64,000 nucleotides of DNA. It comes from Patescibacteria group bacterium. GTDB lineage: Bacteria; Patescibacteriota; Microgenomatia; Levybacterales; GWA1-39-11. The stretch lies in assembly GCA_035549295.1 (NCBI GenBank), contig DASZRG010000043.1:1910-65909 (forward strand), read 5' to 3'. This document shows positions 341-60,556 of this stretch, piece by piece; within the stretch, counting starts at the first letter, position 1; each line of letters opens with the position of its first letter. A program made the position numbers and the translations under genes. The notes below the pieces were generated by a model. That model searched no databases, was not told the origin of the DNA, and saw only the letters and a program-made list of their open reading frames with translations.

Positions 341-341
341 A

Positions 342-2290: not shown

Positions 2291-2390
2291 GTGTTTTGGA
2301 TTTTCGCAAATTATATACAATCGTCCTCTTCTTTTAACGATTTTACATTTGTTACATCTTTTTTTTACTGACGCTTGCACCTTCATATTT

Positions 2391-3141: not shown

Positions 3142-3215
3142 ATGTTTGCTTTTGGCGCTTGGCTTTTGGTGTTTGGTTTGCGTTTTAAAATTAACTAAAC
3201 GCTAACCCCTAAACC
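3142..3215. repeat. Type A hairpin repeat at the L14/S17 junction
   Basis: GCTTTTGGCGCTTGGCTTTTGGTGTTTGGTTTGCG ... ACTAAACGCTAACCCCTAAACCCTAAACGC. Confidence 0.75.
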
Positions 3216-3470
3216 CTAAACGCTTTTTGCTCCTTCCTTAATAATTCCTATAACCTTAAAATTTTTATCGCGACTCATTGGTCTTGTTTGTTCAATTTTT
3301 ACGTTTTGACCAACCATAAGCGCCATTCCAGCAGTATCTGCTTTTAAGTTAGTTGTTCGTCTCAACATTTTTTTGTAAATAGGATGCTTTACAAATCTTT
3401 CGATCTCAACGACAACCGTATTTTGCATTTTTGTCGATTTTACTCTTCCGATAAATGTTTTTTTAGCCAT
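3216..3470 (-). CDS. rpsQ: 30S ribosomal protein S17
   Basis: The 84 aa ORF has an OB-fold S17 sequence (GRVKSTKMQNTVVVEIER) and sits in the S17 operon position. Confidence 0.9.
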   Translation of the reverse strand: MAKKTFIGRVKSTKMQNTVVVEIERFVKHPIYKKMLRRTTNLKADTAGMALMVGQNVKIEQTRPMSRDKNFKVIGIIKEGAKSV

Positions 3471-3528
3471 ATTTATTAGAAATTAGATACTAGAAATTAG
3501 ATACTAGGAATTTCCTAGTTTCTAGTCT
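3471..3528. repeat. Type B hairpin repeat at the S17/L29 junction
   Basis: TTAGAAATTAGATACTAGAAATTAGATACTAGGAATTTCCTAGTTTCTAGTCTCTAGTGACTAG. Confidence 0.75.
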
Positions 3529-3789
3529 CTAGTGACTAGTCTCTCCTTTCGCGCGTGATTTATTTTTTACTTTTTCTTCTTCAAAAACTTGCCCCATTTC
3601 TTTCAAAGACATGAAAGTCAAAACTCTTGCTATGTCTTTATTCTTGGCGCGTCGCGCATTCATGTTTTTTGCTTTTCCAAGTTTTTCCTCAATCGATAGC
3701 TTTGAAAGCTCTTCTCTCATGTCAAGAAGCGTGCGCTTCAACTCGTCTAACGTTTTCATTTTTAAATCTGCAATATCTGTTTTTTTCAT
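3529..3789 (-). CDS. rpmC: 50S ribosomal protein L29, with a lysine-rich C-terminal extension
   Basis: At 86 aa it is longer than the usual ~65 aa. It sits in the L29 position between L16 and S17 and has an L29-like helical N-terminus. Confidence 0.8.
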   Translation of the reverse strand: MKKTDIADLKMKTLDELKRTLLDMREELSKLSIEEKLGKAKNMNARRAKNKDIARVLTFMSLKEMGQVFEEEKVKNKSRAKGETSH

Positions 3790-3792
3790 AAT

Positions 3793-4209
3793 TTATAAAT
3801 GACCCCTTTTAATAAAGCTGCTTTTGACAGGAAGCTTGTAAGCTGCAAGTCTCAATGCTTCTTTTGCTATTTCCTCTGTAATTCCACCCATTTCAAAAAG
3901 AACACGTCCACTCTTAACTGGCGCAACATATTCATGTATGTCGCCTTTTCCGCCACCCATTCTAGTCTCCGGGGGTTTTCTAGTGATAGGTCTGTCTGGA
4001 AAAATTCTTATCCAGATTCTTCCCCCACGCTTCGTAAAATGAGTGATAGACTTTCGAGCAGCCTCTATTTGTCGGCTGGAAATATTTCCTGACGCGTCGG
4101 CTCGAAGCCCAAACTCACCAAACGAAACCTTGTTGCCGGCAAATGCTATTTGGCCAGCGACCTTTGGTTTAAATTGTTTTCTATATTTTGATCTTCTTGG
4201 CGTTAACAT
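3793..4209 (-). CDS. rplP: 50S ribosomal protein L16
   Basis: The 138 aa ORF shows the L16 signature [12 protein letters not shown] ... GGGKG. Confidence 0.95.
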
Positions 4210-4276
4210 AAATTTAGCTTTTAGCGTTTAGCGTTTAGGTGTTAGTTACTAATTGCTAACCCCTAACTGCCAACTG
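4210..4276. repeat. Type A hairpin repeat at the L16/S3 junction
   Basis: TTAGCGTTTAGCGTTTAGGTGTTAGTTACTAATTGCTAACCCCTAACTGCCAACTGC. Confidence 0.75.
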
Positions 4277-4915
4277 CTACTTATTTATCCAGACTTTTAC
4301 TCCTATATATCCACTTTTTGTTAGGGCTGGATTTGATGCATAATCAATATCCTCACGAATTGTTGAAAGCGACACTTTGCCTGCCTGCAGTCTCTCGCGT
4401 CTTCCAATCTCAGCTCCTCCAATTCTTCCCGACAAAACAACTCTCACTCCCTTTGCACCTGCGCTCATAACCTTGTCAATTGTCTGCTTCATGACGCGTC
4501 TTGCAGGCATACGTCGAATAAGTTGATCCGAAATATTTGTAGCAACCAGATATGCCGAAAGATTTGGATCTTTAATAGGCTCTACTTTTAATTCAATCTT
4601 CTTTGAATTTCTCTCTTGCTTTGTTACTCCAAGCATTTTTACAATCTCACGCTTGAGATCTTCAAGACCTGAACCGCCACGACCTATTACAATTCCAGGA
4701 CGGGTAACATAAATTGTAAGCTTTATGCTTGATAGAGATCGCTCAATAATAACGTCTCCTACACCAGCCGGCTTTAGCTTTGCAAATAAAGCTTCACGAA
4801 TTTTGATATCCGAAAGAACGGTCTTTGAATATTGTTTTTTTGAATAATATCCTACGCTCTTAAAACCCTGGTGTATACCAAGACGAAGTGCTACTGGATT
4901 TACTTTTTGTCCCAT
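4277..4915 (-). CDS. rpsC: 30S ribosomal protein S3
   Basis: The 212 aa ORF starts MGQKVNPVALRLGI and carries the KH domain typical of S3. Confidence 0.95.
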   Translation of the reverse strand: MGQKVNPVALRLGIHQGFKSVGYYSKKQYSKTVLSDIKIREALFAKLKPAGVGDVIIERSLSSIKLTIYVTRPGIVIGRGGSGLEDLKREIVKMLGVTKQERNSKKIELKVEPIKDPNLSAYLVATNISDQLIRRMPARRVMKQTIDKVMSAGAKGVRVVLSGRIGGAEIGRRERLQAGKVSLSTIREDIDYASNPALTKSGYIGVKVWINK

Positions 4916-4989
4916 GATTTTTGGCTTATGGCAATTGGCTTTTGGCGGTTAGTATAAAAAACTAACTGCTAACCCCTAAACGCTAAGTG
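4916..4989. repeat. Type A hairpin repeat at the S3/L22 junction
   Basis: TTTTGGCTTATGGCAATTGGCTTTTGGCGGTTAGTATAAAAAACTAACTGCTAACCCCTAAACGCTAAG. Confidence 0.75.
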
Positions 4990-5442
4990 CTATTCGCTTT
5001 TCTCCTTTCTTACTCTTTTTGCTGCGGCTTTAATACCTGCAGTCAAACCTTTTGGCTTTGCTTCTTCGGCTGTTTCAACGGGCGCAACCGCGCGCATTGT
5101 GTCGCGAGTCTTACCATCTGCCAATATAACTCGTATGTGACTTGTTCTTCTTTTGTAGGGTCTGGTTCTTCCGCGACCAGCAAAATGAAAACGCTTCATT
5201 CCCACTCCACCGTCAACGATTATGTCTTTTATGGTCAGTTCATCTTTTTTAGCCTGAAAATTGTTGGTTGCATTAGCAACGGCTGAATCAAGTGCTTTTT
5301 TAATAGGGCCTGCAGCTCGCTTATTCATAACAGAAAGAGATGATAAAGCAACCATGAGCTTCTTCTCCTTTACGCCATCAGCAACCAAACGAACTTTTCG
5401 TGGCGATATTTTTATATTTTTTGCAATTGCTATATATTCCAT
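4990..5442 (-). CDS. rplV: 50S ribosomal protein L22, with a C-terminal Ala/Lys-rich extension
   Basis: The 150 aa ORF has an L22 core (ISPRKVRLVADGV) followed by an extra roughly 35 aa tail. Confidence 0.9.
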   Translation of the reverse strand: MEYIAIAKNIKISPRKVRLVADGVKEKKLMVALSSLSVMNKRAAGPIKKALDSAVANATNNFQAKKDELTIKDIIVDGGVGMKRFHFAGRGRTRPYKRRTSHIRVILADGKTRDTMRAVAPVETAEEAKPKGLTAGIKAAAKRVRKEKSE

Positions 5443-5518
5443 AATTCTAGATATTAGTGACTAGATATTAGATATTAGGAATTTGTTCTACTAGTTCCTA
5501 GTATCTAGTTTCTAATTA
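5443..5518. repeat. Type B hairpin repeat at the L22/S19 junction
   Basis: TCTAGATATTAGTGACTAGATATTAGATATTAGGAATTTGTTCTACTAGTTCCTAGTATCTAGTTTCTAATTACT. Confidence 0.75.
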
Positions 5519-5803
5519 CTATGTTTTACTGACCTCCCTCGCAACAACTCTCCCGTGACCTCTAAATAGTCTTGTCGGCGCGAATTCACCAAGTCTATGA
5601 CCAACCATATTTTCAACTACTTTTACAGTAATGTGATTTTTTCCATTGTGTACCAAGAAAGTAAGACCAACAAATTCTGGCGGAATTTGGCTTGCACGTG
5701 CCCAAGTCTTGATAGGTGCAACTTGCCCACTCGCGCGCTGTGCCTGAACTTTCTTCATAAGCTTCTCATCAATGTATGGTCCTTTTCTAAGTGATCTACT
5801 CAT
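5519..5803 (-). CDS. rpsS: 30S ribosomal protein S19
   Basis: The 94 aa ORF starts [12 protein letters not shown] and contains [11 protein letters not shown], matching S19. Confidence 0.95.
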
Positions 5804-5887
5804 ATTTTAAAATTAAATTGTTTAATTGCTAAAAATTGTTAAATTGTTTTAAACAATATAGCTATTCAACAATTTAGCAAATATATT

Positions 5888-6628
5888 TTACTTTCTTCTC
5901 TTAACTATATTCTTGTTTGAATATTTCTTTGGTCTTCTTGTCTTACCAACTGCCTTGCGTCCTCGGTAGGTCTTTGGTGAAGTCATACCGATTCCAGAAC
6001 GTCCTTCTCCTCCACCGTGAGGGTGAGAAGATGGATTCATCGCAACTCCGCGAACTGCTGGCCTTATACCTCGGTGTCTTGATGCTCCTGCCTTACCAAG
6101 TACTCGATCTTTCCAATCTACATTTCCGAGTTGTCCGATTGTAGCAAAATTTTTAACTAAAATCTTCCTTATTTCGCCTGAAGGCATTCTAACATATGCA
6201 TATTCACCCTCGCGAGATACTATAAAAGCTTGATTTCCTGCTGAGCGAGCAAGCTGTCCACCCCGTCCCGGGTTCAATTCGATATTGTGAATTGGCTGTC
6301 CGACCGGAATATTTGCAATCGGCATAGCGTTTCCAGGACGAATATCAACATCTACACCTGATGCAACCTTATCCCCAACCTTAAGTCCTACTGGAGCTAA
6401 TATATATCTTTTGTCTCCGTTCTTATAGTTTACCAGAGCCAGGTCAGCTGAGCGATTTGGATCATACTCTATAGCTGCAACAACACCCTCGATTCCAACA
6501 TTATTGCGCTTAAAATCAACGCTTCTGTAAAATCTTTTGTGTCGTCCACCCTGATGGCGAACAGCAACACGACCTTGCGAATCGCGCCCTGACTGTTTTT
6601 TAAGAATTGTTAGTAATTTCTTTGACAT
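5888..6628 (-). CDS. rplB: 50S ribosomal protein L2, with a shortened N-terminus
   Basis: The 246 aa ORF contains the conserved L2 motifs EYDPNRSA, GQLARSAG and HPHGGGEG. Confidence 0.95.
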   Translation of the reverse strand: MSKKLLTILKKQSGRDSQGRVAVRHQGGRHKRFYRSVDFKRNNVGIEGVVAAIEYDPNRSADLALVNYKNGDKRYILAPVGLKVGDKVASGVDVDIRPGNAMPIANIPVGQPIHNIELNPGRGGQLARSAGNQAFIVSREGEYAYVRMPSGEIRKILVKNFATIGQLGNVDWKDRVLGKAGASRHRGIRPAVRGVAMNPSSHPHGGGEGRSGIGMTSPKTYRGRKAVGKTRRPKKYSNKNIVKRRK

Positions 6629-6631
6629 GGT

Positions 6632-6976
6632 TTATTTCTTCGTTTCTTTCTCTTTTTTCTTATCTTCTTTCTTTTCTTCCCCGGTACTCTCTTCAAAAAT
6701 TGCTATTTTTTGTCCATTTGCCAGCTTTACGCGTGCTTTTTTATAATCAGCAGGAAGAATTCTGCGACCTGTTCTTGTATTTCTTGTTTTTGTTCCTTTA
6801 ATATTTGCTGTGTAAACATTTCTAACATCAACGCTAAAAAGCATCTCAACGGCATTTTTGATATCAGTTTTAGTAGCTGCTTTATCCACTAAAAATGTAT
6901 ATTTACCCGCTTTTGCCTCAGTAAATGACTTTTCAGAAATAATTGGTTTTACTAAAAAGCTTGCAAAATTTTTCAT
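6632..6976 (-). CDS. rplW: 50S ribosomal protein L23
   Basis: The 114 aa ORF has L23-like sequence and sits between L4 and L2. It has a Glu/Lys-rich tail. Confidence 0.9.
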   Translation of the reverse strand: MKNFASFLVKPIISEKSFTEAKAGKYTFLVDKAATKTDIKNAVEMLFSVDVRNVYTANIKGTKTRNTRTGRRILPADYKKARVKLANGQKIAIFEESTGEEKKEDKKKEKETKK

Positions 6977-6977
6977 A

Positions 6978-7745
6978 TTATTTTCCTAAAAATACCTTCT
7001 CAAGCGTTGGGATTGAATCCTTGGTAATAACCAAGTAGCTACTATTCAAAACTTCATAAGTGTTGATGCTGTGAGTTGGTAATACGCTCGCGCCATCAAT
7101 ATTTCTAACTGATCTAACAACACTCTTTGCGTCTGCAACAAAAAGGAATTTGTTTGTTTTATTCTTCTTTGTTACAACTTCAAGTGTTTTAAGCAATTTA
7201 TTCATTTCGGATGTTTTTCCTGATGCGCCGGTTACATCAATTGCAATAATTCGACCAGCAGCTAACTTTTGTGAAAGAGCTGAAAAAATTGCTTTTTTCT
7301 TCATTTGTTTTGATAATTTAAGCTCAAAATTGCGAGGTTTTGGACCATGTGCAATTCCTCCTCCAACAAAAATAGGTGCTTTTATCGCTCCGTGACGTGC
7401 ACGACCTGTACCTTTTTGTCTATAAATTTTTCTAGTTGAACCGATAACTTCTCCGCGAGTCTTGGTAGACGCTGTACCTTGTCTTTGGTTAACCAAATAA
7501 ACACGAATCGCCTGAGTCATAAGATCTTCATTGATCTTTGCTCCAAATATCTCTGCTGGAAGACTAATTGTTCCGCTTTTTGCACCATCTATACTAAAAA
7601 CAGGGAGTGAGAGACTTGTGCTCTTTGCAGTAACTGTCTTTTCGGCTTTAGGTGCAGCAGCACGTGAAACAGCAACAACTTTTGCCTTTTGTGTTGTTGA
7701 ACTTTTGATATTTGATTTTTGATTTTTGATCTTACTTTCCGGCAT
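6978..7745 (-). CDS. rplD: 50S ribosomal protein L4. Start placed at the internal ATG 7743-7745; the tracked ORF extends to 7835 but would overlap rplC
   Basis: The L4 core is present (QRQGTASTKTRGEV ... GPKPRNF). An AAGGAGGAGG ribosome-binding site lies just upstream of the ATG at 7745, and the L3 stop is at 7732. Confidence 0.88.
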   Translation of the reverse strand: MPESKIKNQKSNIKSSTTQKAKVVAVSRAAAPKAEKTVTAKSTSLSLPVFSIDGAKSGTISLPAEIFGAKINEDLMTQAIRVYLVNQRQGTASTKTRGEVIGSTRKIYRQKGTGRARHGAIKAPIFVGGGIAHGPKPRNFELKLSKQMKKKAIFSALSQKLAAGRIIAIDVTGASGKTSEMNKLLKTLEVVTKKNKTNKFLFVADAKSVVRSVRNIDGASVLPTHSINTYEVLNSSYLVITKDSIPTLEKVFLGK

Positions 7746-8676
7746 TTTCCTCCTCCTTTGACTCGACGGAACCTTCAGTGGAGTCGGTCTTTGTCTCGCC
7801 AGAGCTTTCAGCGTCGGCGGACTTTTCAGCTTCATTTACCACTTCAGTTGCAGTTGCTGGTGTCGCATCAGTTGGCGCCTCGACAACATCTGCTGCAGGT
7901 GCTGTCTCAACGACTTCTGCCGTTTCTTCAGTCTTTACTTCTTCTTTTCCAAGATCTGCGACTTCTGCAATCTGGGATAAATCCTCCTGAACTGTCTCTA
8001 TCTTTTCTTCTTCTTTTTTCTCAGCCCAAAGAGGAGTGAAGTTTTTGTTCTTTCGACCAACCTTATTTAAAACAACTATGCTTCCACGAGTTCCTGGGAT
8101 CAAACCTTTAACCAAAATTAAATCATCTTTGATCTCAAGAACCTCAAGGTTTTTGACAGTTACTTGCTCATTACCCATGCGACCGGCCATTTTTTTACCT
8201 TTGTAAACACGGCCTGGAGTTGTACCTGATCCGCTTGATCCGCGAGCACGCTCACGATCTGACTGTCCATGAGTTCTTGGTCCACCAGCAAATCTGTATC
8301 TCTTAACAACACCTGCAAACCCTTTTCCTTTTGAAGTTCCAGTTACGTCTACGTAGTCGCCAGCCTCAAAAACCTCATCAATTACAACTGGCGATCCGGC
8401 TGTCGCGCCTGCGACATCATCTACCCTTATTTCGCGAAAAAAGCGGGGTGTTGTTGATAATCCCGCTTTTTTTATGTGGCCGCTCGTTGGTTTGTCAGGG
8501 CGCATATTTTCTCCGAATGAGAGTTGAATGGATGAATAACCCTCTTTTTCAGGAGTTTTGACCTGAGAAACGACGTTTCCACCCACGGCGATAATCGAAA
8601 GCGGAACGCGGGTTCCATCTTCCAAAAAGCCTTGCGTTTGAGCAATTTTTTGACCAATAAGACCTGTAATGTTCAT
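7732..8676 (-). CDS. rplC: 50S ribosomal protein L3, with a roughly 110 aa acidic Glu/Thr/Ala-rich C-terminal tail. An alternative start lies at 8721
   Basis: The N-terminus MNITGLIGQKIAQTQGF matches L3. The tail runs in frame to the stop at 7732. Confidence 0.9.
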   Translation of the reverse strand: MNITGLIGQKIAQTQGFLEDGTRVPLSIIAVGGNVVSQVKTPEKEGYSSIQLSFGENMRPDKPTSGHIKKAGLSTTPRFFREIRVDDVAGATAGSPVVIDEVFEAGDYVDVTGTSKGKGFAGVVKRYRFAGGPRTHGQSDRERARGSSGSGTTPGRVYKGKKMAGRMGNEQVTVKNLEVLEIKDDLILVKGLIPGTRGSIVVLNKVGRKNKNFTPLWAEKKEEEKIETVQEDLSQIAEVADLGKEEVKTEETAEVVETAPAADVVEAPTDATPATATEVVNEAEKSADAESSGETKTDSTEGSVESKEEENAGK

Positions 8677-8820: not shown

Positions 8821-8867
8821 CACGCACGAAATACGCTCCAAAAAATCATATCTGATATACTAAAATC

Positions 8868-15333: not shown

Positions 15334-15374
15334 AACTGTATTTTATCACTAATGTATCCGAATGGTTAGTCCGA

Positions 15375-15809
15375 ATGAACCGAATGCACTATACTTTAAT
15401 TATGCCCAATATCGTTTATCCGGAACTTTCATATAAGTTAATGGGTATTCTATTTCAAATACATACAGAATTAGGTAATAGATATCAAGAAAAATATTAT
15501 CAACGAGCAATTGAATTATCTCTTAAGAAAAATGGAATTATATATAAAAAGGAACTACCAGTAGATTTAATCTTTGAGGGAGAGAAAATTGGTAAATATT
15601 ATCTCGATTTTTTGGTTGAGAATAAAATTATTTTAGAAGTAAAAGCAGTCGAGAGAATCTTACCTAAAGATTTTACTCAATTACTTGCATATTTAAAGGC
15701 AAACAACCTAGAGCTAGGAATTCTAGTAAACTTCAGGACTAATAAATTATTTTCTCGAAGAATTTTAAACTCGGATTTTCAAAGAGACAATTCGGGTCAT
15801 TTGGAGTAA
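15375..15809 (+). CDS. GxxExxY family protein
   Basis: The sequence YLDFLVENKIILEVKAVERILPKDFTQLLAYLKANNLELGILVNF matches the GxxExxY (TIGR04256-like) family. The start may instead be the second ATG at 15384. Confidence 0.65.
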   Translation: MNRMHYTLIMPNIVYPELSYKLMGILFQIHTELGNRYQEKYYQRAIELSLKKNGIIYKKELPVDLIFEGEKIGKYYLDFLVENKIILEVKAVERILPKDFTQLLAYLKANNLELGILVNFRTNKLFSRRILNSDFQRDNSGHLE

Positions 15810-15834
15810 AAATTCGGATTTATTCGTGATACCG

Positions 15835-16374
15835 CTACGCGGTGCCTAGTTGTTCCAGTTTTTCTACCATATGGTCATCACTAATATTTGATACATCAAC
15901 ATTTTGCTGATGCATAAGGATGAGGCCTTGGATGATTTTTCTAGCTTTCGCAGCATCTGCTTTTCTTAGATATGGCACAGAGACTGTATTATCGGCAAAT
16001 GACTGGTCAACAATCTTGAGCGTTGAAAAAAACGGACCCTCATCAAGAAAAACATCAAGAATATTTTTTACATATATGCAGTGGACATTAAAAGATGAAA
16101 AGAACTCTTTTGTAATGACATTTACCTTGAGAGGGTCTATCGTTATCTTATCGGGAAAAAGTGCAAAAGGAAAAACAGATTTTGTTTTGAAAAGAACATG
16201 ATTGGATTTGGAAATGATGAGATTAAATTTTCTCGTATTCTCTGCGACTTTTTTGACATATTCTTTGGCCGCATCTTTGAGTCCCTCTTTGTTGGCTTCA
16301 TCTATAAATTTCTGGCGAGCGGGATCGCTTCTGATCTGACCGTTTTTTGGGTATGATGAAAGTTGATTATCCAT
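15835..16374 (-). CDS. Hypothetical protein (179 aa)
   Basis: A clean ORF with no recognisable motifs. It is convergent with the GxxExxY gene. Confidence 0.5.
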   Translation of the reverse strand: MDNQLSSYPKNGQIRSDPARQKFIDEANKEGLKDAAKEYVKKVAENTRKFNLIISKSNHVLFKTKSVFPFALFPDKITIDPLKVNVITKEFFSSFNVHCIYVKNILDVFLDEGPFFSTLKIVDQSFADNTVSVPYLRKADAAKARKIIQGLILMHQQNVDVSNISDDHMVEKLEQLGTA

Positions 16375-16653: not shown

Positions 16654-16662
16654 GCGATCTCC

Positions 16663-16671
16663 TGATATAAT
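16663..16671 (+). promoter_or_regulatory. Extended -10 element TGATATAAT, 6 nt upstream of the msrB ATG (leaderless configuration)
   Basis: TGnTATAAT lies at 16663-16671 and the ATG at 16678, with no intervening ribosome-binding site. Confidence 0.45.
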
Positions 16672-16677
16672 GTCTAT

Positions 16678-18179: not shown

Positions 18180-18236
18180 ATTACCCAAGCTTGACAACTA
18201 CCACTAAGAATTGCAATCCGATATAATTCATTTCAA

Positions 18237-23745: not shown

Positions 23746-24381
23746 TTGTGTCCTATGGAAGAAGATCAACCTAGTGAAATTTTTCAGGCCCCCCCAGAAT
23801 ACCAAAGCAGACTCTCGCGTCAAAATTCCGGCGGATCTGGCAAACGCTATCTTATAATCATAATCTTTATTGTTGTCCTTGTTGTAATAATTTTAGGAGT
23901 ATTTAAATTCTTACGAGGAGGAAAAAATACAGACGCAGATATTATGCCAACGCCAACCTCTGAAATTGCTCCTTCAGATACTCCTTCACCAACTCCTATT
24001 AACGGCAGTCCAACACCAACTGGTGCAGTTTCGACCACCCCAAGCCCTTCCACTACTCCGGGCGCATCATCAAGTATCGACAAAGCTACAGGTCTTGATA
24101 GAAGCAAACTAGCAATACATGTCCTAAATGGAAGCGGCGTGTCTGGTGCGTCAAAAAAAGCTAGCGATTTCCTGGAAGGACTTGGCTATAACGTTGTCGA
24201 ATCAGGAAATGCGGAGAATTTTGACTACGACAACTCGGAAATACAAATAAAGGCAAGCGATAGTAAATATCTTGCTCTTTTGAAAAAAGATGCTTCCTCA
24301 AAATATACGATTGGAAGCACTTCAGCAACCCTGAAAGAATCCGGACGAGACGACGCCGTATTCATCGTTGGAAAAGAGTAA
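23746..24381 (+). CDS. Membrane-anchored LytR_C (LytR/CpsA/Psr C-terminal) domain protein
   Basis: A TM helix is followed by a Pro/Thr/Ser-rich linker and a LytR_C-like domain (LAIHVLNGSGVSGASKKASDFLEGLGYNVVESGNAENFDY). Confidence 0.65.
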   Translation: MCPMEEDQPSEIFQAPPEYQSRLSRQNSGGSGKRYLIIIIFIVVLVVIILGVFKFLRGGKNTDADIMPTPTSEIAPSDTPSPTPINGSPTPTGAVSTTPSPSTTPGASSSIDKATGLDRSKLAIHVLNGSGVSGASKKASDFLEGLGYNVVESGNAENFDYDNSEIQIKASDSKYLALLKKDASSKYTIGSTSATLKESGRDDAVFIVGKE

Positions 24382-24387
24382 TTGCAA

Positions 24388-24498
24388 GGGTATCACGGGT
24401 ACCATGGGTATCACGAGTATCACAAGCTATTCATTTTTCAGCAATAACTGTCCACTATAGCACGTGATACTCTTGATACTTGTGATACACTTGATACC
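24388..24498. repeat. Inverted pair of four-unit 9-mer arrays (GTATCACGG-like units) separated by a 33 nt spacer
   Basis: Left arm GGGTATCACGGGTACCATGGGTATCACGAGTATCACAAGC. Right arm GCACGTGATACTCTTGATACTTGTGATACACTTGATACC, which is the reverse complement at about 75% identity. It starts 7 nt after the LytR_C gene stop. Confidence 0.85.
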
Positions 24499-24510
24499 TC
24501 TCATATAACC

Positions 24511-27399: not shown

Positions 27400-27489
27400 A
27401 TCTAGGAAATTCTAGTGCTATTCCTAATCAAGCACCAAATTCAAAATAACAAGATCCAAATAATTTTTCAAATATAAATTTTCAAACTA

Positions 27490-27849
27490 TTAAGATTTAT
27501 TTGCTATTGCTGCAAAGATTTTAACAAATTCACTCGCCTCCTGCATTAGAGGTTCCAATTCACGTCTGAAGTCTAAATTTGCGTCTATGAGCAGGTCAAA
27601 CCAATAAACAGTTTCCTTCGACTCTTTTCTACAGATTCTTATCCTAAAAAAGAAATCCTTTTTTGTTTCTGTTTCATTTGCTTCTCGATAATTTGCACCG
27701 ATTGAGGTCGCTGATCTTACAAGTTGATCTATTAGTTTAAAATTAACGGTATTCTTGGGTAAAGAGCTTAAAACTTTAATCGTTTTCTTGCTGAACTCTA
27801 AAGTTCTATCTTCTAAGTCATACTTTTTAATGTTTGATGCTTGAGACAT
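27490..27849 (-). CDS. Four-helix-bundle protein (23S rRNA intervening-sequence protein / bAvd-like family)
   Basis: The sequence LIDQLVRSATSIGANYREANETETKKDFFFRIRICRKESKETVYWFDL matches the TIGR02436-type four-helix-bundle family. Confidence 0.75.
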   Translation of the reverse strand: MSQASNIKKYDLEDRTLEFSKKTIKVLSSLPKNTVNFKLIDQLVRSATSIGANYREANETETKKDFFFRIRICRKESKETVYWFDLLIDANLDFRRELEPLMQEASEFVKIFAAIANKS

Positions 27850-27881
27850 TATTTGGAACTTGGAATTTGGAATTTGATGCT

Positions 27882-29675
27882 TTAGTCTCTTGTTGCGTCG
27901 GCAACATGTTCTTCTTCCAGGCGGAAGATACCTTCATCAAGTCTTTTTTGATCAAGGAAATGGGAGATAAATCCAATTGAGCGGGATGCGACAAAAATTG
28001 CGTTAAAGAATTCAATATCTACAAGCTGCTTTAATTCATCAACTGAATAGCCTTCCTTTTCTGATAATAAATCAAGAAGTACCGCAGCTATTGATCCATC
28101 TATATTGAGAATGAGATTTCCCTTTTTCGCAACTGTTACTTTTTCTATTTCTTTTGCAAATTTTGTGTACTTGGCATCAAGTCCTTCTGTGAAAGACAGA
28201 ACTTCAGCAACACGCGGATCTGGAATATCAACTCTATATTTTCTGTGACCTATTCCTGAAATATATTTTTTATTTGCCGCAAATTCTTCAACAAACTTTG
28301 ATGCATCAACATCTCGTTCAACACCCATCACAAAATTTGCTGCTGCTTCATTTATGGCCCCTCCAAATCGTGGACCTATTGTTAAAATTCCTGTAGCTAG
28401 TGACGACACAAGATCGCGTCCTGCGCGTGCTGTAATAATGGTATTAACTGCACCTGATACATATGGACCATGGTCAACAAGAAGTTTGAGAACAAAATTC
28501 ATAAAATCTTCGAGTTCTTGTGACTTGATTTTTTTTCCAAGAAACATTGAGGCAACAACGTACCCAAACGAGTGATTTTTTGAAAAACTCAAAAGTTCTT
28601 CACCCACTATTTTGACACTTCCACCATCATCCCTTGAAATACTTGTTGATATAAGTCCATGTTTTCGACTGTCCATATCATCTATTATAGCCTGTTTCTC
28701 ATCATTTTCTTCCGATAACTCCTGAGGTATCTCGCTCATCATTTGCACAAATTCAGAAAAGCTTTCTGCGACATGAACTCCGGCGTCCCTCAGAGCATCT
28801 CGTTTGGCGCGAGCTGTCTCGCGCGCGTTTGCCGCCATTGCTTTCGCATGACCAAATTGCGGAGCTGTTGGGAAAATTTCAGCAACGGTTCCCGCAATAT
28901 AACAATAAACAGGTTTTGTAAGTTTTCCGCTTTGTATAAGTTCACAAACTCCATATTCATCCGTTCCACCTAGCTCTCCAAAATAAACTATATACTCAGT
29001 TGCCGCATCATTTTCAGCCGCAAGGAATGCTTCTTTTGGTGGAGTTGCAGGAAATCTTTCACCTCCGAAATGGAGCGCAAATGAAATATTTTTCTTGTGT
29101 TGTGCAAGAATGTTTATAAGCTCATTCGTTGTCCCACCTGATGCTGAAAAAACCGCAATGTTACCTCGCTTAAATAAGCGTGCATCAACCAGTTGTCTAT
29201 GCGTAACTCCTCCGATAGCACCAAGTTTTACAATATTCGGAATAATAAGTCCCACCGATGCTGGACCGATGATAAATATATTTTTCGCATCGGCAAGAGT
29301 CTTAAGATCTATCGCATGTTTTTCTGGAACACCTTCTGCAAAAACAGTACCGCCAATAATCGACGGTAATTTTTCAATCGCGTCAGCCGATGAAACAAAA
29401 GCGCGTCTACCCGATGAAACATTTATAAAATATGTGATAGCCTCACGAAGATCACTTGGGATTTTTGCAACTTCAGAATAGACGGGAATTAAAATTTCTT
29501 TTTTTCCAAAAAAGTATCTCTCAAATCGACGGCCCGCAGCAACAATTCCAATAATCGATGGTTTAGTATTTCCCGATGTAAATTCAAAATCTAGAATTGA
29601 TTGAATTATCGACGGATAAGATCCGATGAATAATATTTTTTTGTCTGAACTGATTATTTTGTCTATGCTGATCAT
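27882..29675 (-). CDS. aclA: ATP-citrate lyase subunit A-like protein (succinyl-CoA-synthetase-alpha-like CoA-binding domain plus citrate-synthase-like citryl-CoA lyase domain)
   Basis: Alignable blocks to ATP-citrate lyase include KEILIPVY, IIGPASVGLI, the phospho-His loop QFGHAKAMAA, HGPYVSGAVNTIITARAGRDLVSSLATGILTIGPRFGGA, GIGHRKYRVDIPDPR, KKGNLILNIDG and FISHFLDQKRL. Confidence 0.85.
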   Translation of the reverse strand: MISIDKIISSDKKILFIGSYPSIIQSILDFEFTSGNTKPSIIGIVAAGRRFERYFFGKKEILIPVYSEVAKIPSDLREAITYFINVSSGRRAFVSSADAIEKLPSIIGGTVFAEGVPEKHAIDLKTLADAKNIFIIGPASVGLIIPNIVKLGAIGGVTHRQLVDARLFKRGNIAVFSASGGTTNELINILAQHKKNISFALHFGGERFPATPPKEAFLAAENDAATEYIVYFGELGGTDEYGVCELIQSGKLTKPVYCYIAGTVAEIFPTAPQFGHAKAMAANARETARAKRDALRDAGVHVAESFSEFVQMMSEIPQELSEENDEKQAIIDDMDSRKHGLISTSISRDDGGSVKIVGEELLSFSKNHSFGYVVASMFLGKKIKSQELEDFMNFVLKLLVDHGPYVSGAVNTIITARAGRDLVSSLATGILTIGPRFGGAINEAAANFVMGVERDVDASKFVEEFAANKKYISGIGHRKYRVDIPDPRVAEVLSFTEGLDAKYTKFAKEIEKVTVAKKGNLILNIDGSIAAVLLDLLSEKEGYSVDELKQLVDIEFFNAIFVASRSIGFISHFLDQKRLDEGIFRLEEEHVADATRD

Positions 29676-29747
29676 TTTTTTTCCTTGTCATTCTTAAGGA
29701 GCAACGCGACTGAAGAATCTTTGTTAAAGATCCTTCGAGCTTCGCTC

Positions 29748-30935
29748 TCAGGATGACAAACTTATAATTGCTTCACCTACAATATCTGACACCACAAATT
29801 CCGGGCCATGAACTGCACCTAGTAGCTTATTTTCATCTAAGAATTTTCTCATAATCTCAAGGCCTTCTTTCTGATGTGGACCACCGCGTCTTACAAAAAC
29901 TTTAACTCCTTGCTCTTGAAGATCTGGTACGACATCCGATATAGCACGAATAACTCCCAAAAAAGTCGTTCTAATATCTGTAAAGTTTGCAACTCCTCCA
30001 CCGATAATTAACACCTTTTTCTTCGCCTGAGATTTTAAAAGTAGAGAAAGTAAATTTTTTGCATAGAGAAATGTCTCCTCTTCAGTCGGATTTCCAGAAT
30101 ACTCTCCATAGTTTGCAAGTTCTCCACCATATCCAAGACTCTGGACTTCATCTGCCAGCATTACACTCACTCCTCCACCTGAGAGCAACATAAAAATAGA
30201 ACCATTAGGATTGAGAACAGTTAGCGTAAGCGACGATGAACTTTTCTCGGCAACTTTTGCAATATTTTTCTCTTCCTCAGTTTTATCAAGCTTTGCGGAT
30301 CGGATATCGTGACTACTCCAGTTATCGACAAAAAATTCAGCAGCCGAATCTACTTCACTTGCTATATCAAGCATGAACGGTGTCTTAAAAGAAATAACAA
30401 GAGGATTTATCTCAAGGAATGAAAAATAATTTATTTCAAAAACTTCAATTATTTTGGTAAGAAAGTCAGGACTTAATTCTATTTTTGACGCGACTTCTTC
30501 TATATCTTTTGGATCTGTAATCAGATGTTTTTTTACTTCATGCTCATACGCTTCAACATCAACTCCACCCTTACTTGAGTAATAAAGGACAGTCCCCTCC
30601 CCCGCTCTCTCAAGTGCAAGATAGTGTTCTTCTGAATCTTCATGAGCTATCATTTCCTCAATCAAAAAATGAGAATATCCTTTTTTACTCAGTTCTGAAA
30701 CTGCATCTATTATGTCGTTTGCTTTTTCAAGATCAAGTTTTATAAGTCCTTGTTTAAATCTCTTTTTAATTCCTTGATCAACTTTAACAACGTATTTTTT
30801 ATCGGTCTTTACTGAATCTTCGATCTTTGAAATTGGATCATGATCTATCGTGAAAGGGAAACCAGAATATGGTGTTTTGAGATGATTGTTGACGATAGTT
30901 TTTGCGCGAAATTCGGATAACTTTACTCGTGGCAT
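29748..30935 (-). CDS. aclB: ATP-citrate lyase subunit B-like protein (ATP-grasp, succinyl-CoA-synthetase-beta-like)
   Basis: Blocks matching the ACLY N-terminal half include YLEINPLV, LTVLNPNGSIFMLLSGGGVSVM, ELANYGEYSGNPTEEETFLYAKNLLSLL, KVLIIGGGVANFTDI and VFVRRGGPHQKEGLEIM. Confidence 0.85.
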   Translation of the reverse strand: MPRVKLSEFRAKTIVNNHLKTPYSGFPFTIDHDPISKIEDSVKTDKKYVVKVDQGIKKRFKQGLIKLDLEKANDIIDAVSELSKKGYSHFLIEEMIAHEDSEEHYLALERAGEGTVLYYSSKGGVDVEAYEHEVKKHLITDPKDIEEVASKIELSPDFLTKIIEVFEINYFSFLEINPLVISFKTPFMLDIASEVDSAAEFFVDNWSSHDIRSAKLDKTEEEKNIAKVAEKSSSSLTLTVLNPNGSIFMLLSGGGVSVMLADEVQSLGYGGELANYGEYSGNPTEEETFLYAKNLLSLLLKSQAKKKVLIIGGGVANFTDIRTTFLGVIRAISDVVPDLQEQGVKVFVRRGGPHQKEGLEIMRKFLDENKLLGAVHGPEFVVSDIVGEAIISLSS

Positions 30936-30992
30936 ACTAGTATCAAGTATAAGGTATTAGGTATAAAGTATAAAGAGGCAGCGGCAATAAGA

Positions 30993-34204: not shown

Positions 34205-34213
34205 TGCTATAAT
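34205..34213 (+). promoter_or_regulatory. Extended -10 element TGCTATAAT, 6 nt upstream of the pepP ATG (leaderless configuration)
   Basis: TGnTATAAT lies at 34205-34213 and the ATG at 34220. Confidence 0.45.
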
Positions 34214-34219
34214 CGTCCA

Positions 34220-38154: not shown

Positions 38155-38266
38155 GAGTATCACGAGTAATTACAATCGTTTAAAGTTATTGGGTAACGAA
38201 ACCCGTATCGGTGAAGTTTTACGTTTAACATACCCCATTGACGAAACGGGCATCGTAACCGATTAA
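38155..38266 (+). repeat. Roughly 110 nt dispersed element, copy A. It starts with GAGTATCACGAG and directly abuts the stop codon of the GT39-like gene
   Basis: About 85% identical to the reverse complement of 53462-53573, including an identical 18-mer CAATCGTTTAAAGTTATT and an identical 22-mer ACGAAACGGGCATCGTAACCGA. Confidence 0.85.
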
Positions 38267-38276
38267 CTTAGATAGT

Positions 38277-53461: not shown

Positions 53462-53573
53462 TCGGTTACGATGCCCGTTTCGTTTTTGGGTTACGTTAAA
53501 CGTAAAGACTTAACCGATACGGGTATCGTTACCAAATAACTTTAAACGATTGGAATCGCCCTTGATACCCTTA
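53462..53573 (-). repeat. Roughly 110 nt dispersed element, copy B. It is inverted relative to copy A and directly abuts the alaS stop codon
   Basis: The reverse complement aligns with 38155-38266 at about 85% identity. On the alaS strand it begins GGGTATCAAGGG immediately after the TAG stop. Confidence 0.85.
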
Positions 53574-60100: not shown

Positions 60101-60499
60101 CTTGTAATGCTTATTATTCCAATTGCTGTTTCCGGTGTATTTGTAATTTTTGCACTTACTGGAACTCCGCTTTCATTCCCAGCTCTCATTGGAATTCTTT
60201 CACTTTTTGGAATTGTCGTAACTCATGCGATGGTCCTAGTCGATAGAATTAATCTAAATAGAAAATCAGGACTTCCTTTCTCAACTTCTATCGCCGATGC
60301 TGCAGCAGCCAGACTTGAACCAATATTCTTGGGATCATTTACTACTATCGTCGGACTCGTACCAATAACAATTTCAAACCCTCTCTGGCGCGGACTCGGT
60401 GGAGCAATTGTCGCGGGTCTCTCATTCTCAATATTTATAATGCTTTTCTTCGTACCGACAGTATACTATATGTGGTTCAAGCCGAGTTCGGAGAAGTAG
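57173..60499 (+). CDS. RND superfamily efflux transporter permease
   Basis: The 1108 aa ORF has a 12-TM architecture with two large extracytoplasmic loops. Its start overlaps the adaptor stop by 1 nt. Confidence 0.8.
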   Translation: MAIKSYLSNLKFDPKLRDSFKAKYLNNIRLVILFVLFLFVVGTSSFLRLPKRLNPEIKIPIVSVTTVLPGAGPNDIESLVTIPIEDGLNGLPNKTDIDSTSSESVSNITIQFTSGTDSEKAKQDVKSALDSVTTLPTDATAPTIQTFDIENQPVWIFAIKTNADPATLSRFATSLQDKLKSNSNIDHVDISGIDKQEFQILLKQDTLSNYNANPMQIASAVKAALKSYPAGDVDTENSSFPIGIDAPITSAADIRNLNINLSGEILKLGDIATVSEKTAPNAQQAYYADSNFSAQKVVTFSVFKTKSADITDAAADAKKITNQTISSYQNVFQVVNVQDTATEVNKQFNDLISNFISTIILVFITFLVFLGVRQALIVSITIPLTFLSAFTVMYYAGLSINFLSLFSLLLSLGLLVDDSIVIITGITSYYKTKKFTPQEAGLLVWRDFIVPIWSTTITTVWAFIPLLLATGIIGEFIKTIPIVVAATLYSSTTIAVLITLPLMMVTLHLKMPKRVKLLLVALGVIFLIMLISPFTSGNAFGGLILILYLAFIFVTFKIRYRIAEKIAERIQPSNRKRVSQFFNQFLNRGIIDLEIIGERYKGIISRILENKNSRRKVIAAIIIFTVFAYLLVPTGFVVNEFFPKENANILYVTEELPAGTKIETTNREALDLANLLRKTNGVNHVTSQVGSAIDETGNSFVSGNNILQVTLDLPDPDKQKITSIDMATALREKFKSYTKGKIAVVEESGGPPAGADVQIQILGDDLQKLDGYADQISAFLNKQSGVVNVNKSIKPGVSKITFVPDFAKISQNGLTIDTVGFTLRTYISGNKIDTVKFNNSTDSEDIVLRQNGVNASPEELGAINITNQQGAVIPLSDLGQFALKTNPTQITRHNNKRTITISAGVSAGYSVTTINKKLEDFANTKLGLPDDYTWQTGGVNDENNKSVQSILQAMLLAGILIFGTMVIQFTSYRQALLVMLIIPIAVSGVFVIFALTGTPLSFPALIGILSLFGIVVTHAMVLVDRINLNRKSGLPFSTSIADAAAARLEPIFLGSFTTIVGLVPITISNPLWRGLGGAIVAGLSFSIFIMLFFVPTVYYMWFKPSSEK

Positions 60500-60537
60500 A
60501 GTATCAAGGGTATCAGGAGTATCAAGAGTATCACGAG
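60499..60537 (+). repeat. Tandem array of four 9-mers (GTATCAAGG GTATCAGGA GTATCAAGA GTATCACGA) starting at the RND gene stop codon
   Basis: Read directly. It has the same unit as the 24388-24498 arrays and as the 5' end of the 110 nt element. Confidence 0.85.
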
Positions 60538-60556
60538 CTGATTTCCAATTTACATT

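What the first reader, a model, noticed from the sequence alone, without database searches (positions are those of the whole stretch)
24388..24498. GTATCAC 9-mer iteron-like arrays begin within 0 to 8 nt of stop codons at four loci
Arrays of three or four tandem 9-mers (GTATCACGG, GTATCAAGG, GTATCAGGA) start essentially at the stop codon of four genes. They follow the LytR_C gene at 24388, where the array is repeated in inverted orientation 33 nt later (24460-24498). They follow the RND permease gene (60499-60537) and the GT39-like gene (38155, GAGTATCACGAG). On the minus strand, the alaS stop is immediately followed by GGGTATCAAGGG. A degenerate array (GTATCAAGTATAAGGTATTAGGTATAAAGTATAAAG) lies at 30940-30975 upstream of aclB. 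The 9 to 10 bp periodicity places units on one DNA face, as in iterons or arrays of transcription-factor sites. The strict placement after stop codons instead suggests a 3'-end function such as termination, a 3' UTR protein-binding site, or a seed for the 110 nt element.
Basis: seen in the sequence. Interest (0 to 1): 0.65.

Follow-up and report, generated by a model that had tools for sequence, protein, structure and literature searches.

The report
Dispersed nonamer-armed palindromic element in Patescibacteria
The 9-mer arrays are real, but they are copies and fragments of an apparently undescribed palindromic repeat element that litters candidate-phyla-radiation (Patescibacteria) genomes, sitting against stop codons and even in frame inside essential genes, rather than iterons or terminators.

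Summary
GTATCANGR occurs 15 times against 2.8 expected, and a GRGTATCAMGRG unit abuts a stop codon on the gene's own strand at five loci, one more than reported.

The window comes from a Patescibacteria MAG. 24386-24501 is one full copy of an element with fixed anatomy: AARR, four GTAYCA-MRR units, GAGCT, a variable loop, AGCTC, four inverted units, YYTT. 60499-60539 is a lone arm. 38155, 53573 and 15834 are single units.

I found 22 further full copies and many lone arms in other Patescibacteria contigs. They lie against stop codons, or in frame inside LepA-like, Obg, RluA-type and RadA-like genes. Five close relatives with conserved gene order carry none; where the window has the element they have a DUF488 gene.

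The arms show no compensatory change. Partner units are less complementary than shuffled ones, so a conserved RNA hairpin is not supported. There is no U-tract terminator and no Rfam match.

Longer versions enclose a four-helix-bundle "23S rRNA intervening-sequence protein" gene between the same arms.

Best reading: a selfish, IVS-like or RPE-like palindromic element. How it moves is unknown. The 7-mer array upstream of aclB belongs to a different family and is conserved in relatives.

The parts
24386..24501 (+). Full copy of the GTAYCA nonamer palindromic element. It reads AAGG, four units (24390-24425), a 42-nt loop beginning CAAGCT and ending AGCACG, four inverted units (24465-24497), then CTCT. 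It fills the LytR_C to HhH-GPD spacer.
   Evidence: Sequence. Inverted repeat of 42 nt at 79% complementarity. RNA fold -48.2 kcal/mol, z -6.8; the minus strand folds equally well at -49.9. Anatomy matches 21 other full copies.
24379..24381 (+). TAA stop of the LytR_C gene, 6 nt upstream of the first unit.
   Evidence: The C-terminus (..VGKE*) aligns to the end of four orthologues (..GKQ*), so the element lies beyond the native stop.
60499..60539 (+). Lone 5' arm: four units (GAGTATCAA GGGTATCAG GAGTATCAA GAGTATCAC) followed by the GAGCT tail. The G of the RND permease TAG stop is the first base of the first unit. There is no inverted partner.
   Evidence: The GAGCT tail is the same as in full copies.
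38155..38166 (+). Single unit GAGTATCACGAG directly after the TAA of the PMT_2 glycosyltransferase gene. It is the 5' end of the ~110-nt repeat at 38155-38276.
53562..53573 (-). Single unit GGGTATCAAGGG directly after the TAA of alaS. It is the 5' end of the second copy of the ~110-nt repeat (53456-53573).
15823..15834 (-). Single unit CGGTATCACGAA directly after the TAG of hypothetical gene 15835-16374. It lies in a 25-nt spacer between convergent genes.
27400..27881 (-). Related gene-carrying cassette. A four-helix-bundle (PF05635/TIGR02436) gene at 27490-27849 is bracketed by inverted 7-mer arrays: CAAATTC units on the 5' side and GAATTTG units on the 3' side.
   Evidence: Flank duplex -33.5 kcal/mol, z -5.1.
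15334..15834 (+). Related gene-carrying cassette. A GxxExxY PD-(D/E)XK gene (PF13366/TIGR04256) at 15375-15809 is bracketed by inverted CCGAAT / ATTCGG units.
   Evidence: Flank duplex -22.8 kcal/mol, z -3.1.

Best explanation
The feature is a member of a dispersed, palindromic, non-autonomous repeat element family of Patescibacteria. It is not a host regulatory site.

Shown:
- The element has a fixed grammar: A-A-R-R, four GTAYCA-MRR units, (C)GAGCT, an arbitrary loop of 16-59 nt, AGCTC(G), four inverted units, Y-Y-T-T.
- Copies occur in several Patescibacteria lineages. They lie in spacers against stop codons, or in frame inside conserved genes.
- Lone four-unit arms and single units are also common.
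- The window copies are absent from the same sites in close relatives.
- Longer versions carry a four-helix-bundle (23S-rRNA-IVS-protein, Avd-like) gene between the same arms.

Inferred:
- The element spreads, or once spread, as selfish DNA, much as Rickettsia palindromic elements and rRNA intervening sequences are thought to.
- It survives only where it does little harm. In these compact genomes that means the few bases just past a stop codon, ahead of the next gene's start signals, or a surface loop of a protein in a reading frame that gives a hydrophilic peptide.
- Because the element begins with AA, a TAA stop can overlap it. Genome streamlining then removes any remaining gap. This would explain why arrays appear to start at the stop codon.
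- When transcribed, the arms can form an imperfect stem. By analogy with IVS stems this could be an RNase III substrate. The systematic mismatching of partner units may be what keeps copies tolerable. This last step is speculation.

The enzyme that moves the element is unknown.
For: Organism: window proteins are named 'MAG TPA ... [Patescibacteria group bacterium]'.

Fixed anatomy: 22 full copies, always 4+4 units. Four units is the modal array length, 91 of 149 arrays.

Distribution: Saccharimonadales, Curtissbacteria, Levybacteria, Gottesmanbacteria and unclassified Patescibacteria MAGs, plus metagenome contigs.

In-frame copies inside conserved domains: GTP_EFTU (131 residues against 100 profile positions), PseudoU_synth_2 (101 against 61), GTP1_OBG split in two stretches, and PHP_C.

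Recent gain:
- Five relatives with EF-G at least 90% identical and conserved gene order have no two-unit GTAYCA array in about 90 kb.
- Four of them carry a DUF488 gene between LytR_C and HhH-GPD, exactly where the window has the element.
- The LytR_C stop is at the same residue in all.

No selection on pairing:
- 80.7% of cells are paired against 82.3 +/- 0.6 in shuffles.
- The covariation score of 0.153 is below all 500 shuffles.
- C:G at the Y position occurs 5 times against about 13 expected.
- In-register complementarity at Y is 0.32 against 0.44-0.55 at other registers.

Same-loop copies in different contexts: L118 inside a lepA-like gene and L178 in a spacer share an identical 16-nt loop.

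Gene-carrying versions: PF05635 genes lie between GTAYCA arms in L148, L224 and L052. Their flanks pair at -42 to -72 kcal/mol, z about -7.

IVS precedent: terminal inverted repeats forming a stem, an S23p ORF in the loop, RNase III excision, described by its authors as a selfish element (PMC4990558).
Against: - No transposase or other mobilising enzyme is in the window.
- No target-site duplication was found. The TA idea failed: T at position -5 occurs at 13 of 44 ends, which is background.
- No occupied-versus-empty pair with clean boundaries was recovered. The one comparison available shows replacement of a gene, not a simple insertion.
- Loops show no similarity to the interiors of the gene-carrying cassettes, so derivation from them is not shown.
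- All four lone arms or single units in the window face the same way as the gene they follow. Lone arms elsewhere favour the sense strand: 55 to 13 inside open frames, and 13 to 3 beside gene ends. This could instead point to a role in the transcript.
- The precise overlap with stop codons is stronger than a passive filter obviously predicts.
- My sample of other genomes was gathered by searching for the motif itself, so copy numbers and taxonomic range are not unbiased.
Confidence: 0.6

Rival explanations
1. It is a functional RNA element of the 3' UTR or intercistronic spacer. Candidates are a stem-loop that stops transcription, blocks 3' exonucleases or is cut by RNase III, or a set of GUAUCA sites for an RNA-binding protein. 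On this view selection places it right after the stop codon.
For: - It abuts stop codons in the window and elsewhere.
- Lone arms and single units face the same way as the upstream gene: 4 of 4 in the window, and 13 to 3 elsewhere.
- Many lone arms lie between a stop and the next gene's GGAG-ATG.
- The fold is stable, z -6.8.
- Some copies elsewhere are flanked by A-runs and T-runs.
Against: - There is no compensatory change; pairing is below the shuffled expectation.
- Both strands fold equally well.
- There is no U-tract or terminator-like site at either window locus.
- Only 3 of 10 intergenic full copies carry TTTT after the 3' arm.
- The element is absent from orthologous spacers in five relatives.
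- Copies lie inside essential ORFs.
- There is no Rfam family.
- Sense bias inside ORFs is roughly what stop codons and peptide hydrophobicity in the antisense frames would produce. This last point is my inference.
Confidence: 0.2
2. It is an array of double-stranded DNA binding sites, iteron-like. A multimeric protein would recognise GTAnCA cores spaced 9 bp apart, four in each orientation.
For: - The core is invariant, the spacing fixed and the unit number fixed. The variable positions are not complementary between arms, so sequence is conserved rather than pairing.
- From memory, not tested: the unit GGTATCACG resembles a parS half-site (TGTTNCACG).
Against: - Copies are scattered after stop codons and inside ORFs, not at promoters, par loci or origins.
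- They are lost or gained between close relatives.
- A 9-bp period rotates successive sites around the helix instead of keeping them on one face (established B-DNA geometry).
- No candidate binding protein is encoded nearby.
Confidence: 0.12
3. It is a local microsatellite produced by replication slippage in AT-rich spacers. Each array arose on the spot, with no shared origin or function.
For: - The window is full of short tandem arrays of many different units.
- Arrays at the same spacer differ between relatives.
Against: - The same unit grammar, the same count of four units and the same GAGCT/AGCTC junctions recur in distant Patescibacteria lineages.
- Units within an array are heterogeneous rather than identical copies.
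- Identical 16-nt loops occur in two unrelated contexts.
Confidence: 0.05
4. It is a TIGR-type or CRISPR-like guide-RNA array, in which a 36-nt periodic array is processed into guides.
For: Four units of 9 nt make 36 nt, the tigRNA length, and TIGR systems occur in Patescibacteria (PMC12045711).
Against: - TIGR arrays consist of two different alternating 8-12-nt repeats separated by 9-nt variable spacers. They are repeated 5-15 times and lie next to a Nop-domain tas gene.
- Here a 6-nt core alternates with 3 semi-variable bases, there is a single 36-nt block, and no Nop-domain gene is nearby.
Confidence: 0.01

Closest known systems
Rickettsia palindromic elements (RPE)
   Same: Both are short (about 90-150 nt) palindromic repeats dispersed through a reduced genome. 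Both are found in spacers and, in frame, inside protein-coding genes, where they add a hydrophilic peptide. Neither has a known transposase. The RPE properties are from my own knowledge of Ogata et al. 2000; the review PMC10969869 came up in search but I did not read it. In-frame insertion of the present element is shown.
   Different: The sequences are unrelated and the host phylum differs. The arms here are built from four tandem 9-nt units, with partner units systematically non-complementary. Lone arms are common. Gene-carrying versions exist.
23S rRNA intervening sequences (IVS) with an S23p / four-helix-bundle ORF
   Same: In both, terminal inverted repeats form a stem around a loop. The loop is either short or carries a PF05635 gene, and the element is regarded as selfish (PMC4990558). 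L148, L224 and L052 carry exactly such a gene between GTAYCA arms.
   Different: The copies seen here lie in protein-gene contexts, not in rRNA; no rRNA gene was present in any locus I held. The IVS stem is nearly perfect (28 bp with one mismatch and one bulge), whereas these stems average 2.6 mismatches per 9 nt. RNase III cleavage has not been tested here.
Correia / NEMIS elements and other bacterial MITEs
   Same: These too are small non-autonomous inverted-repeat elements. They are co-transcribed with neighbouring genes and often lie at gene ends. This comparison rests on my own knowledge.
   Different: MITEs have terminal inverted repeats matching a known IS, and a target-site duplication (TA for Correia). 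No duplication was found here and no parent IS is known.
REP / BIME elements of enterobacteria
   Same: Both are imperfect palindromes clustered just downstream of stop codons, often as mosaics of several elements. The window's spacers are such mosaics. The REP properties are from my own knowledge.
   Different: REPs are 35-40 nt, are not built from tandem sub-units, and are mobilised by RAYT (Y1) transposases. No such gene was seen here.
Intergenic heptamer direct repeats (TAACTGA repeats of Beggiatoaceae, Cyanobacteria and Bacteroidetes; cyanobacterial STRR)
   Same: Both are short tandem units in spacers, including ribosomal-protein operons. Both lie within a few bases of start codons where Shine-Dalgarno sites are rare (PMC4679880). 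This is the best match for the window's 7-mer arrays, such as the one upstream of aclB.
   Different: Those are direct repeats of one heptamer. They are not 4+4 inverted nonamer arrays, and they are not reported inside ORFs.

Membership tests
Plasmid or chromosomal iterons | Direct repeats clustered at a replication origin next to a rep or dnaA gene. | tested here: not met
   The flanking genes are LytR_C, HhH-GPD, an RND permease, PMT_2 and alaS. No rep or dnaA gene is nearby, and copies are dispersed.
Plasmid or chromosomal iterons | Spacing that keeps the sites on one face of the helix (about 10.5 or 21 bp). | tested here: not met
   The period is exactly 9 bp.
Intrinsic (Rho-independent) terminator | A G+C-rich stem followed directly by a U-tract. 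| tested here: not met
   No terminator-like site falls on the element at 24388 or 60499. After the 3' arm the sequence reads CTCTCATATAACC. Only 3 of 10 intergenic full copies have TTTT.
Conserved structured RNA | Base pairs kept through compensatory changes. | tested here: not met
   The covariation score of 0.153 is below all 500 shuffles, and 80.7% of cells pair against 82.3% in shuffles.
Conserved structured RNA | A match to a curated Rfam family. | tested here: not met
   There are no gathering-score hits in the window. In E-value mode only weak hits to long-hairpin miRNA precursor models appear.
TIGR array | Two distinct alternating 8-12-nt repeats with 9-nt variable spacers, many units, next to a Nop-domain tas gene. 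| tested here: not met
   Anatomy taken from PMC12045711 was compared. No such gene is in the window.
MITE (IS-derived) | Terminal inverted repeats. | tested here: met
   The arms are 36-40 nt inverted repeats with invariant cores.
MITE (IS-derived) | Target-site duplication. | tested here: not met
   No direct repeat flanks the element. T at position -5 occurs at 13 of 44 ends, which is background.
MITE (IS-derived) | A parent IS element with the same ends encoding a transposase. | tested here: inconclusive
   The only genes found between matching arms are PF05635 four-helix-bundle genes, which are not known transposases. Only about 1.7 Mb of motif-selected sequence was examined.
RPE-like in-frame palindromic element | Copies inside ORFs that keep the reading frame and interrupt conserved domains. 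| tested here: met
   Seen in LepA-like, RluA-type, Obg, PHP and RadA-like genes and in glycosyltransferases. Nine of 12 in-ORF full copies have a length divisible by 3 by my boundary definition.
RPE-like in-frame palindromic element | Presence or absence polymorphism between related genomes. | tested here: met
   Present in the window and absent from five relatives at conserved gene order.
IVS-like cassette | Inverted repeats forming a stem around a PF05635 ORF. | tested here: met
   Seen in L148, L224, L052 (3' side only), window 27400-27881, and L200.
IVS-like cassette | Located in helix 25 or 45 of 23S rRNA and excised by RNase III. | not testable with these tools
   No rRNA gene is in the window or in any fetched locus. 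No RNA data are available.

The most novel reading that the evidence does not exclude
Patescibacteria may host a previously unrecognised superfamily of palindromic elements whose arms are tandem 7- or 9-nt units.

The full-length members would carry an Avd-like four-helix-bundle gene (PF05635) or a GxxExxY PD-(D/E)XK nuclease gene (PF13366) in the loop. The short members would be gene-less derivatives that colonise stop-codon-proximal spacers and insert in frame into essential genes.

On this reading the classical 23S rRNA intervening sequences are just the rRNA-resident branch of the same superfamily. The two small proteins, whose function has been unknown for decades, would be its mobility or maintenance factors. 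The deliberate mismatching of partner units would be an adaptation that lets copies escape RNase III or palindrome-directed DNA cleavage.
Probability: 0.3. Interest if true: 0.8.

Novelty: new variant of a known kind. Interest (0 to 1): 0.62.

Why it matters
Patescibacteria make up a large share of bacterial diversity, and their genomes are considered streamlined. A family of selfish palindromes that fills their spacers and sits inside genes such as lepA, obg and radA would be a source of protein insertions, assembly breaks and gene-calling errors in these MAGs.

The link between tandem-unit inverted arms and the four-helix-bundle and GxxExxY genes offers a testable lead on what those widespread orphan proteins do, and on where rRNA intervening sequences come from.

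The finding that partner units are less complementary than chance is unusual for any palindromic repeat. It points either to recognition of sequence rather than structure, or to selection against perfect palindromes.

For annotation, the practical message is that these arrays should be masked as repeats and not called as terminators or binding sites.

Tried and rejected
1. TA target-site duplication, with insertion into the TA of stop codons. I first counted 19 of 44 ends flanked by TA while allowing flexible offsets. A position-fixed count shows T at position -5 in 13 of 44 ends, which is background. The apparent enrichment is just the invariant A at -4. Rejected.

2. Strand-specific G-U pairing as a sign of an RNA hairpin. 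The two strands fold equally well, and both kinds of wobble are mixed within copies.

3. TIGR array. Rejected on anatomy.

4. Derivation of gene-less loops from the four-helix-bundle cassettes. There is no similarity above chance.

5. A DUF488 remnant in the window spacer. None was found.

6. Phage carriage. There were 33 IMG/VR hits, all homogeneous coding repeats and none of the 4+4 type.

7. An rRNA location. No rRNA signature is present in any locus.

9. More copies of the 110-nt element. Only the two window copies were found.

10. Read-through translation of stop-adjacent units. The units are in frame xxG-TAY-CAx at 4 of 5 loci. My own arithmetic gives P about 0.14 for at least 4 of 5 sharing a frame, so this is not significant.

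11. Literature searches for a prior description of such elements in Patescibacteria found nothing. The searched library is incomplete.

Full report
**1. What is in the sequence**

At 24388-24423 there are four tandem 9-mers (GGGTATCAC GGGTACCAT GGGTATCAC GAGTATCAC). At 24460-24498 there are four in inverted orientation. Together they give 42-nt arms that are 79% complementary. The predicted RNA stem has -48.2 kcal/mol and z -6.8. The opposite strand folds just as well at -49.9.

At 60499-60537 there are four more units with no inverted partner. GTATCANGR occurs 15 times in the window against 2.8 +/- 1.9 expected, and no shuffle reaches 15.

A unit of the form GRGTATCAMGRG follows a stop codon on the gene's own strand at five loci:
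- LytR_C (TAA, then 6 nt, then the unit).
- The RND permease (the G of TAG is the first base of the unit).
- The PMT_2 glycosyltransferase (TAA|GAGTATCACGAG).
- alaS (TAA|GGGTATCAAGGG, minus strand).
- Gene 15835-16374 (TAG|CGGTATCACGAA, minus strand).

These are shown. From the GTATCA density, about 0.26 such placements are expected and 5 are seen. That figure is my own Poisson arithmetic, P about 1e-5.

- 38155 and 53573 each hold a single unit. That unit is the 5' end of a separate ~110-nt hairpin repeat present twice in the window (84% identity).
- The array at 30940-30975 has period 7 and lies directly 5' of the aclB start codon.

**2. The wider setting in the window**

A listing of all spacers and their folds shows that the 9-mers are one flavour of something pervasive. 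Nearly every spacer in the ribosomal-protein operon (1-8000), and many elsewhere, holds a hairpin whose two arms are tandem 7-mers. The unit families include GCTAAAA/TTTTAGC, CTAGATA/CTAGTAA, AATTGAC, AATTTGG, CCGAATA and TAATCAC. Some spacers are mosaics of several families, for example 53389-53573 and 60500-60724.

**3. The organism**

Exact look-up of ten window proteins returns NCBI records named 'MAG TPA... [Patescibacteria group bacterium]' on an 81-kb contig. This agrees with a short RpoB (1134 aa), a short RpoC (1276 aa) and an archaeal-type thymidine/AMP phosphorylase.

**4. The element family**

Pattern scans of representative genomes and of metagenomes returned many unrelated coding repeats. 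They also returned a coherent set with the same architecture as 24388-24498.

Twenty-two full copies align without gaps. Their grammar is:
- A-A-R-R
- four units of GTAYCA followed by M-R-R
- (C)GAGCT
- a loop of 16-59 nt
- AGCTC(G)
- four inverted units
- Y-Y-T-T

There are always four units per arm. Among all arrays of up to six units, four is the mode, 91 of 149.

The named source genomes are Saccharimonadales, Curtissbacteria, Levybacteria, Gottesmanbacteria and unclassified Patescibacteria. A few low-GC bins carry other labels. No copy of this type was found among 33 hits in IMG/VR.

The window's 24386-24501 fits the grammar exactly. 60499-60539 is a lone 5' arm that still carries the GAGCT tail.

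**5. Where copies sit**

Intergenic full copies have a stop triplet overlapping their terminal AA at 14 of 20 ends. At five ends this is the TAA of a frame of at least 90 codons. Lone arms often lie between a stop and the next gene's GGAG-ATG.

Twelve of the 22 full copies lie inside long open frames. Translation and Pfam scans show these are real genes interrupted in frame:
- A LepA-like GTPase, just before [10 protein letters not shown]. Here 131 residues align to 100 positions of the GTP_EFTU profile.
- RluA-type pseudouridine synthases in two contigs, at the same site. Here 101 residues align to 61 profile positions.
- Obg, where the GTP1_OBG match is split into two stretches.
- A PHP-domain protein.
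- A RadA-like protein. This rests on my reading of the sequence; Pfam gave no hit for the fragment.
- Two large glycosyltransferase-like proteins.

The encoded peptides are hydrophilic, of the form STTGITG...RDTFDTRDT.

**6. Not conserved between relatives**

The EF-G cluster gave five relatives at 90% identity or more, and I fetched their contigs. Gene order is conserved (rpoB-rpoC-rpsL-rpsG ... fusA ... aclBA ... murB ... HhH-GPD ... LytR_C). None of the roughly 90 kb contains even a two-unit GTAYCA array.

In four of the relatives a DUF488 gene lies between LytR_C and HhH-GPD. In the window that gene is gone and the 116-nt element occupies the gap. LytR_C ends at the same residue in all five genomes. 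No DUF488 remnant is detectable in the window. The heptamer hairpins also differ or are absent at orthologous spacers.

By contrast, a heptamer array of YTnATAC units just 5' of the aclB ATG is present in the window, L236 and L239, with related ATACT units further upstream in L238. That array is therefore conserved in kind and belongs to a different class.

**7. Is the hairpin under selection?**

I counted pairs on the 22-copy alignment with the symmetric structure. 80.7% of cells form standard pairs, but shuffling the 3' letters among copies gives more, 82.3 +/- 0.6 (497 of 500 shuffles at least as high). The covariation score of 0.153 is below all 500 shuffles.

The invariant cores carry the pairing. 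The four variable positions of each unit are anti-correlated between partner units:
- At the Y position, T/C and C/T combinations number 56, T/T 25, and C/C only 5 against about 13 expected.
- Complementarity at Y is 0.32 in register against 0.44-0.55 when units are offset.
- Partner units differ at 2.64 of 9 positions on average, and only 1 of 88 is perfect.

So there is no evidence for a conserved RNA structure. There is positive evidence either that sequence rather than pairing is what is kept, or that perfect palindromes are selected against.

Other negative evidence for a structured RNA or terminator:
- No terminator-like site lies on either window locus.
- Only 3 of 10 intergenic full copies have TTTT after the 3' arm.
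- Rfam has no matching family.

**8. Gene-carrying relatives**

Looking for arms spaced further apart revealed 120-aa genes lying exactly between inverted GTAYCA arms in L148 and L224. A third, in L052, is cut by the contig end. In L148 and L052 the gene's TGA stop is the TGA of the first TGATAC unit. These genes are PF05635/TIGR02436, the 'four helix bundle protein' or 23S rRNA intervening-sequence protein, with a weaker match to DGR Avd.

The window's own PF05635 gene (27490-27849) is bracketed by inverted 7-mer arrays. So are those in L200 and L144. GxxExxY PD-(D/E)XK genes (PF13366/TIGR04256) are bracketed the same way at window 15375-15809 and in L120, L113 and L069. The flanks pair at -23 to -72 kcal/mol with z from -3 to -10 in six of eight cases.

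This is the architecture of the classical 23S rRNA intervening sequence: terminal inverted repeats forming a stem around an S23p ORF, excised by RNase III, and regarded as a selfish element (PMC4990558). In relatives the gene at the window's PF05635 position is not a PF05635 gene.

**9. Interpretation**

The best-supported reading is that the finding is a full copy, a half copy and three single-unit fragments of a dispersed palindromic element of Patescibacteria. In behaviour it is akin to Rickettsia palindromic elements (in-frame copies in genes). In architecture it is akin to rRNA intervening sequences (a stem around an optional four-helix-bundle gene).

I attribute the stop-codon placement to three things:
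- These genomes have very short spacers.
- The bases just past a stop are the least constrained.
- The element begins with AA, so a TAA stop can overlap it.

This is inference. The overlap is tighter than a passive filter obviously predicts, and the sense-strand preference of lone arms leaves room for a role in the transcript. The mechanism of spread is unknown. There is no transposase in the window, no target duplication, and the loops are unrelated to the cassette interiors.

**10. Known or new**

Full-text searches found no description of such elements in Patescibacteria, nor of the association between PF05635 or GxxExxY genes and tandem-unit inverted arms. The closest published phenomenon for the heptamer arrays is the intergenic TAACTGA repeats of Beggiatoaceae, Cyanobacteria and Bacteroidetes (PMC4679880). 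TIGR arrays were considered and rejected on anatomy. The library is incomplete, so prior description elsewhere cannot be excluded.

I rate the finding as a new variant of a known kind (palindromic repeat elements), of moderate to high interest.

Noticed in passing
window 1-8000, and spacers listed (e.g. 2700-2766, 4210-4276, 4916-4989, 2201-2290, 5443-5530): Almost every intercistronic spacer of the ribosomal-protein operon is filled, from stop codon to next start codon, by a hairpin whose arms are tandem 7-mers (GCTAAAA or CTAGATA families). No Shine-Dalgarno sequence is visible before the downstream ATG.
   Followed up: partly
window 30936-30992; L236 14079-14180; L239 4682-4766; L238 13008-13197: A heptamer array of YTnATAC units lies immediately 5' of the aclB start codon in the window, L236 and L239; L238 has related ATACT units further upstream. 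It is conserved in kind, unlike the GTAYCA elements, so it may be a real 5' leader signal.
   Followed up: partly
window 27400-27881 and 15334-15834; L148 1896-2380; L224 10721-11160; L200; L120: Small genes of two orphan families lie between inverted arrays of short tandem units. The families are PF05635/TIGR02436 (four-helix-bundle, Avd-like) and PF13366/TIGR04256 (GxxExxY PD-(D/E)XK). The unit sequence differs from copy to copy.
   Followed up: yes
window 27882-30935; L236, L238, L239: ATP-citrate lyase genes aclB and aclA are present in this Patescibacteria MAG and in three relatives at the same position. To my knowledge this is unusual for a group thought to lack TCA-cycle enzymes.
   Followed up: no
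window 24382-24510 versus L236 20484-21022, L237 15690-16275, L239, L240: A DUF488 gene present between LytR_C and HhH-GPD in four relatives is missing from the window and is replaced by the palindromic element. HhH-GPD's own upstream region is reduced to about 13 nt, so the gene may now be co-transcribed with LytR_C.
   Followed up: yes
window 34205-34219, 16662-16677, 18218-18236, 8850-8867: Several genes have a TATAAT-like box (often GATATAAT) ending about 7 nt before the start codon. This suggests leaderless mRNAs (read).
   Followed up: no
window 38155-38276 and 53456-53573: Two copies of a ~110-nt hairpin repeat, 84-87% identical. Each starts with one GTATCA unit directly after a TAA stop. 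No further copy was found in about 1.7 Mb of fetched Patescibacteria-rich sequence.
   Followed up: partly
window 53574-55502: The alaS ORF is only 642 aa and ends right after the tRNA_SAD domain. To my knowledge typical bacterial AlaRS proteins are about 870 aa, so the C-terminal part appears to be missing.
   Followed up: no
L202 and L216 (metagenome contigs): Lone four-unit and three-unit GTAYCA arms lie in frame at the same position of ComEA-like genes, just before the helix-hairpin-helix region, in two different contigs. The ComEA assignment is my reading of the translated flank.
   Followed up: no
22 aligned full copies (alignment A3): Unexplained: partner units of the two arms are less complementary than chance. 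C:G at the variable core position is strongly depleted, and the symmetric register is the worst of all registers.
   Followed up: yes
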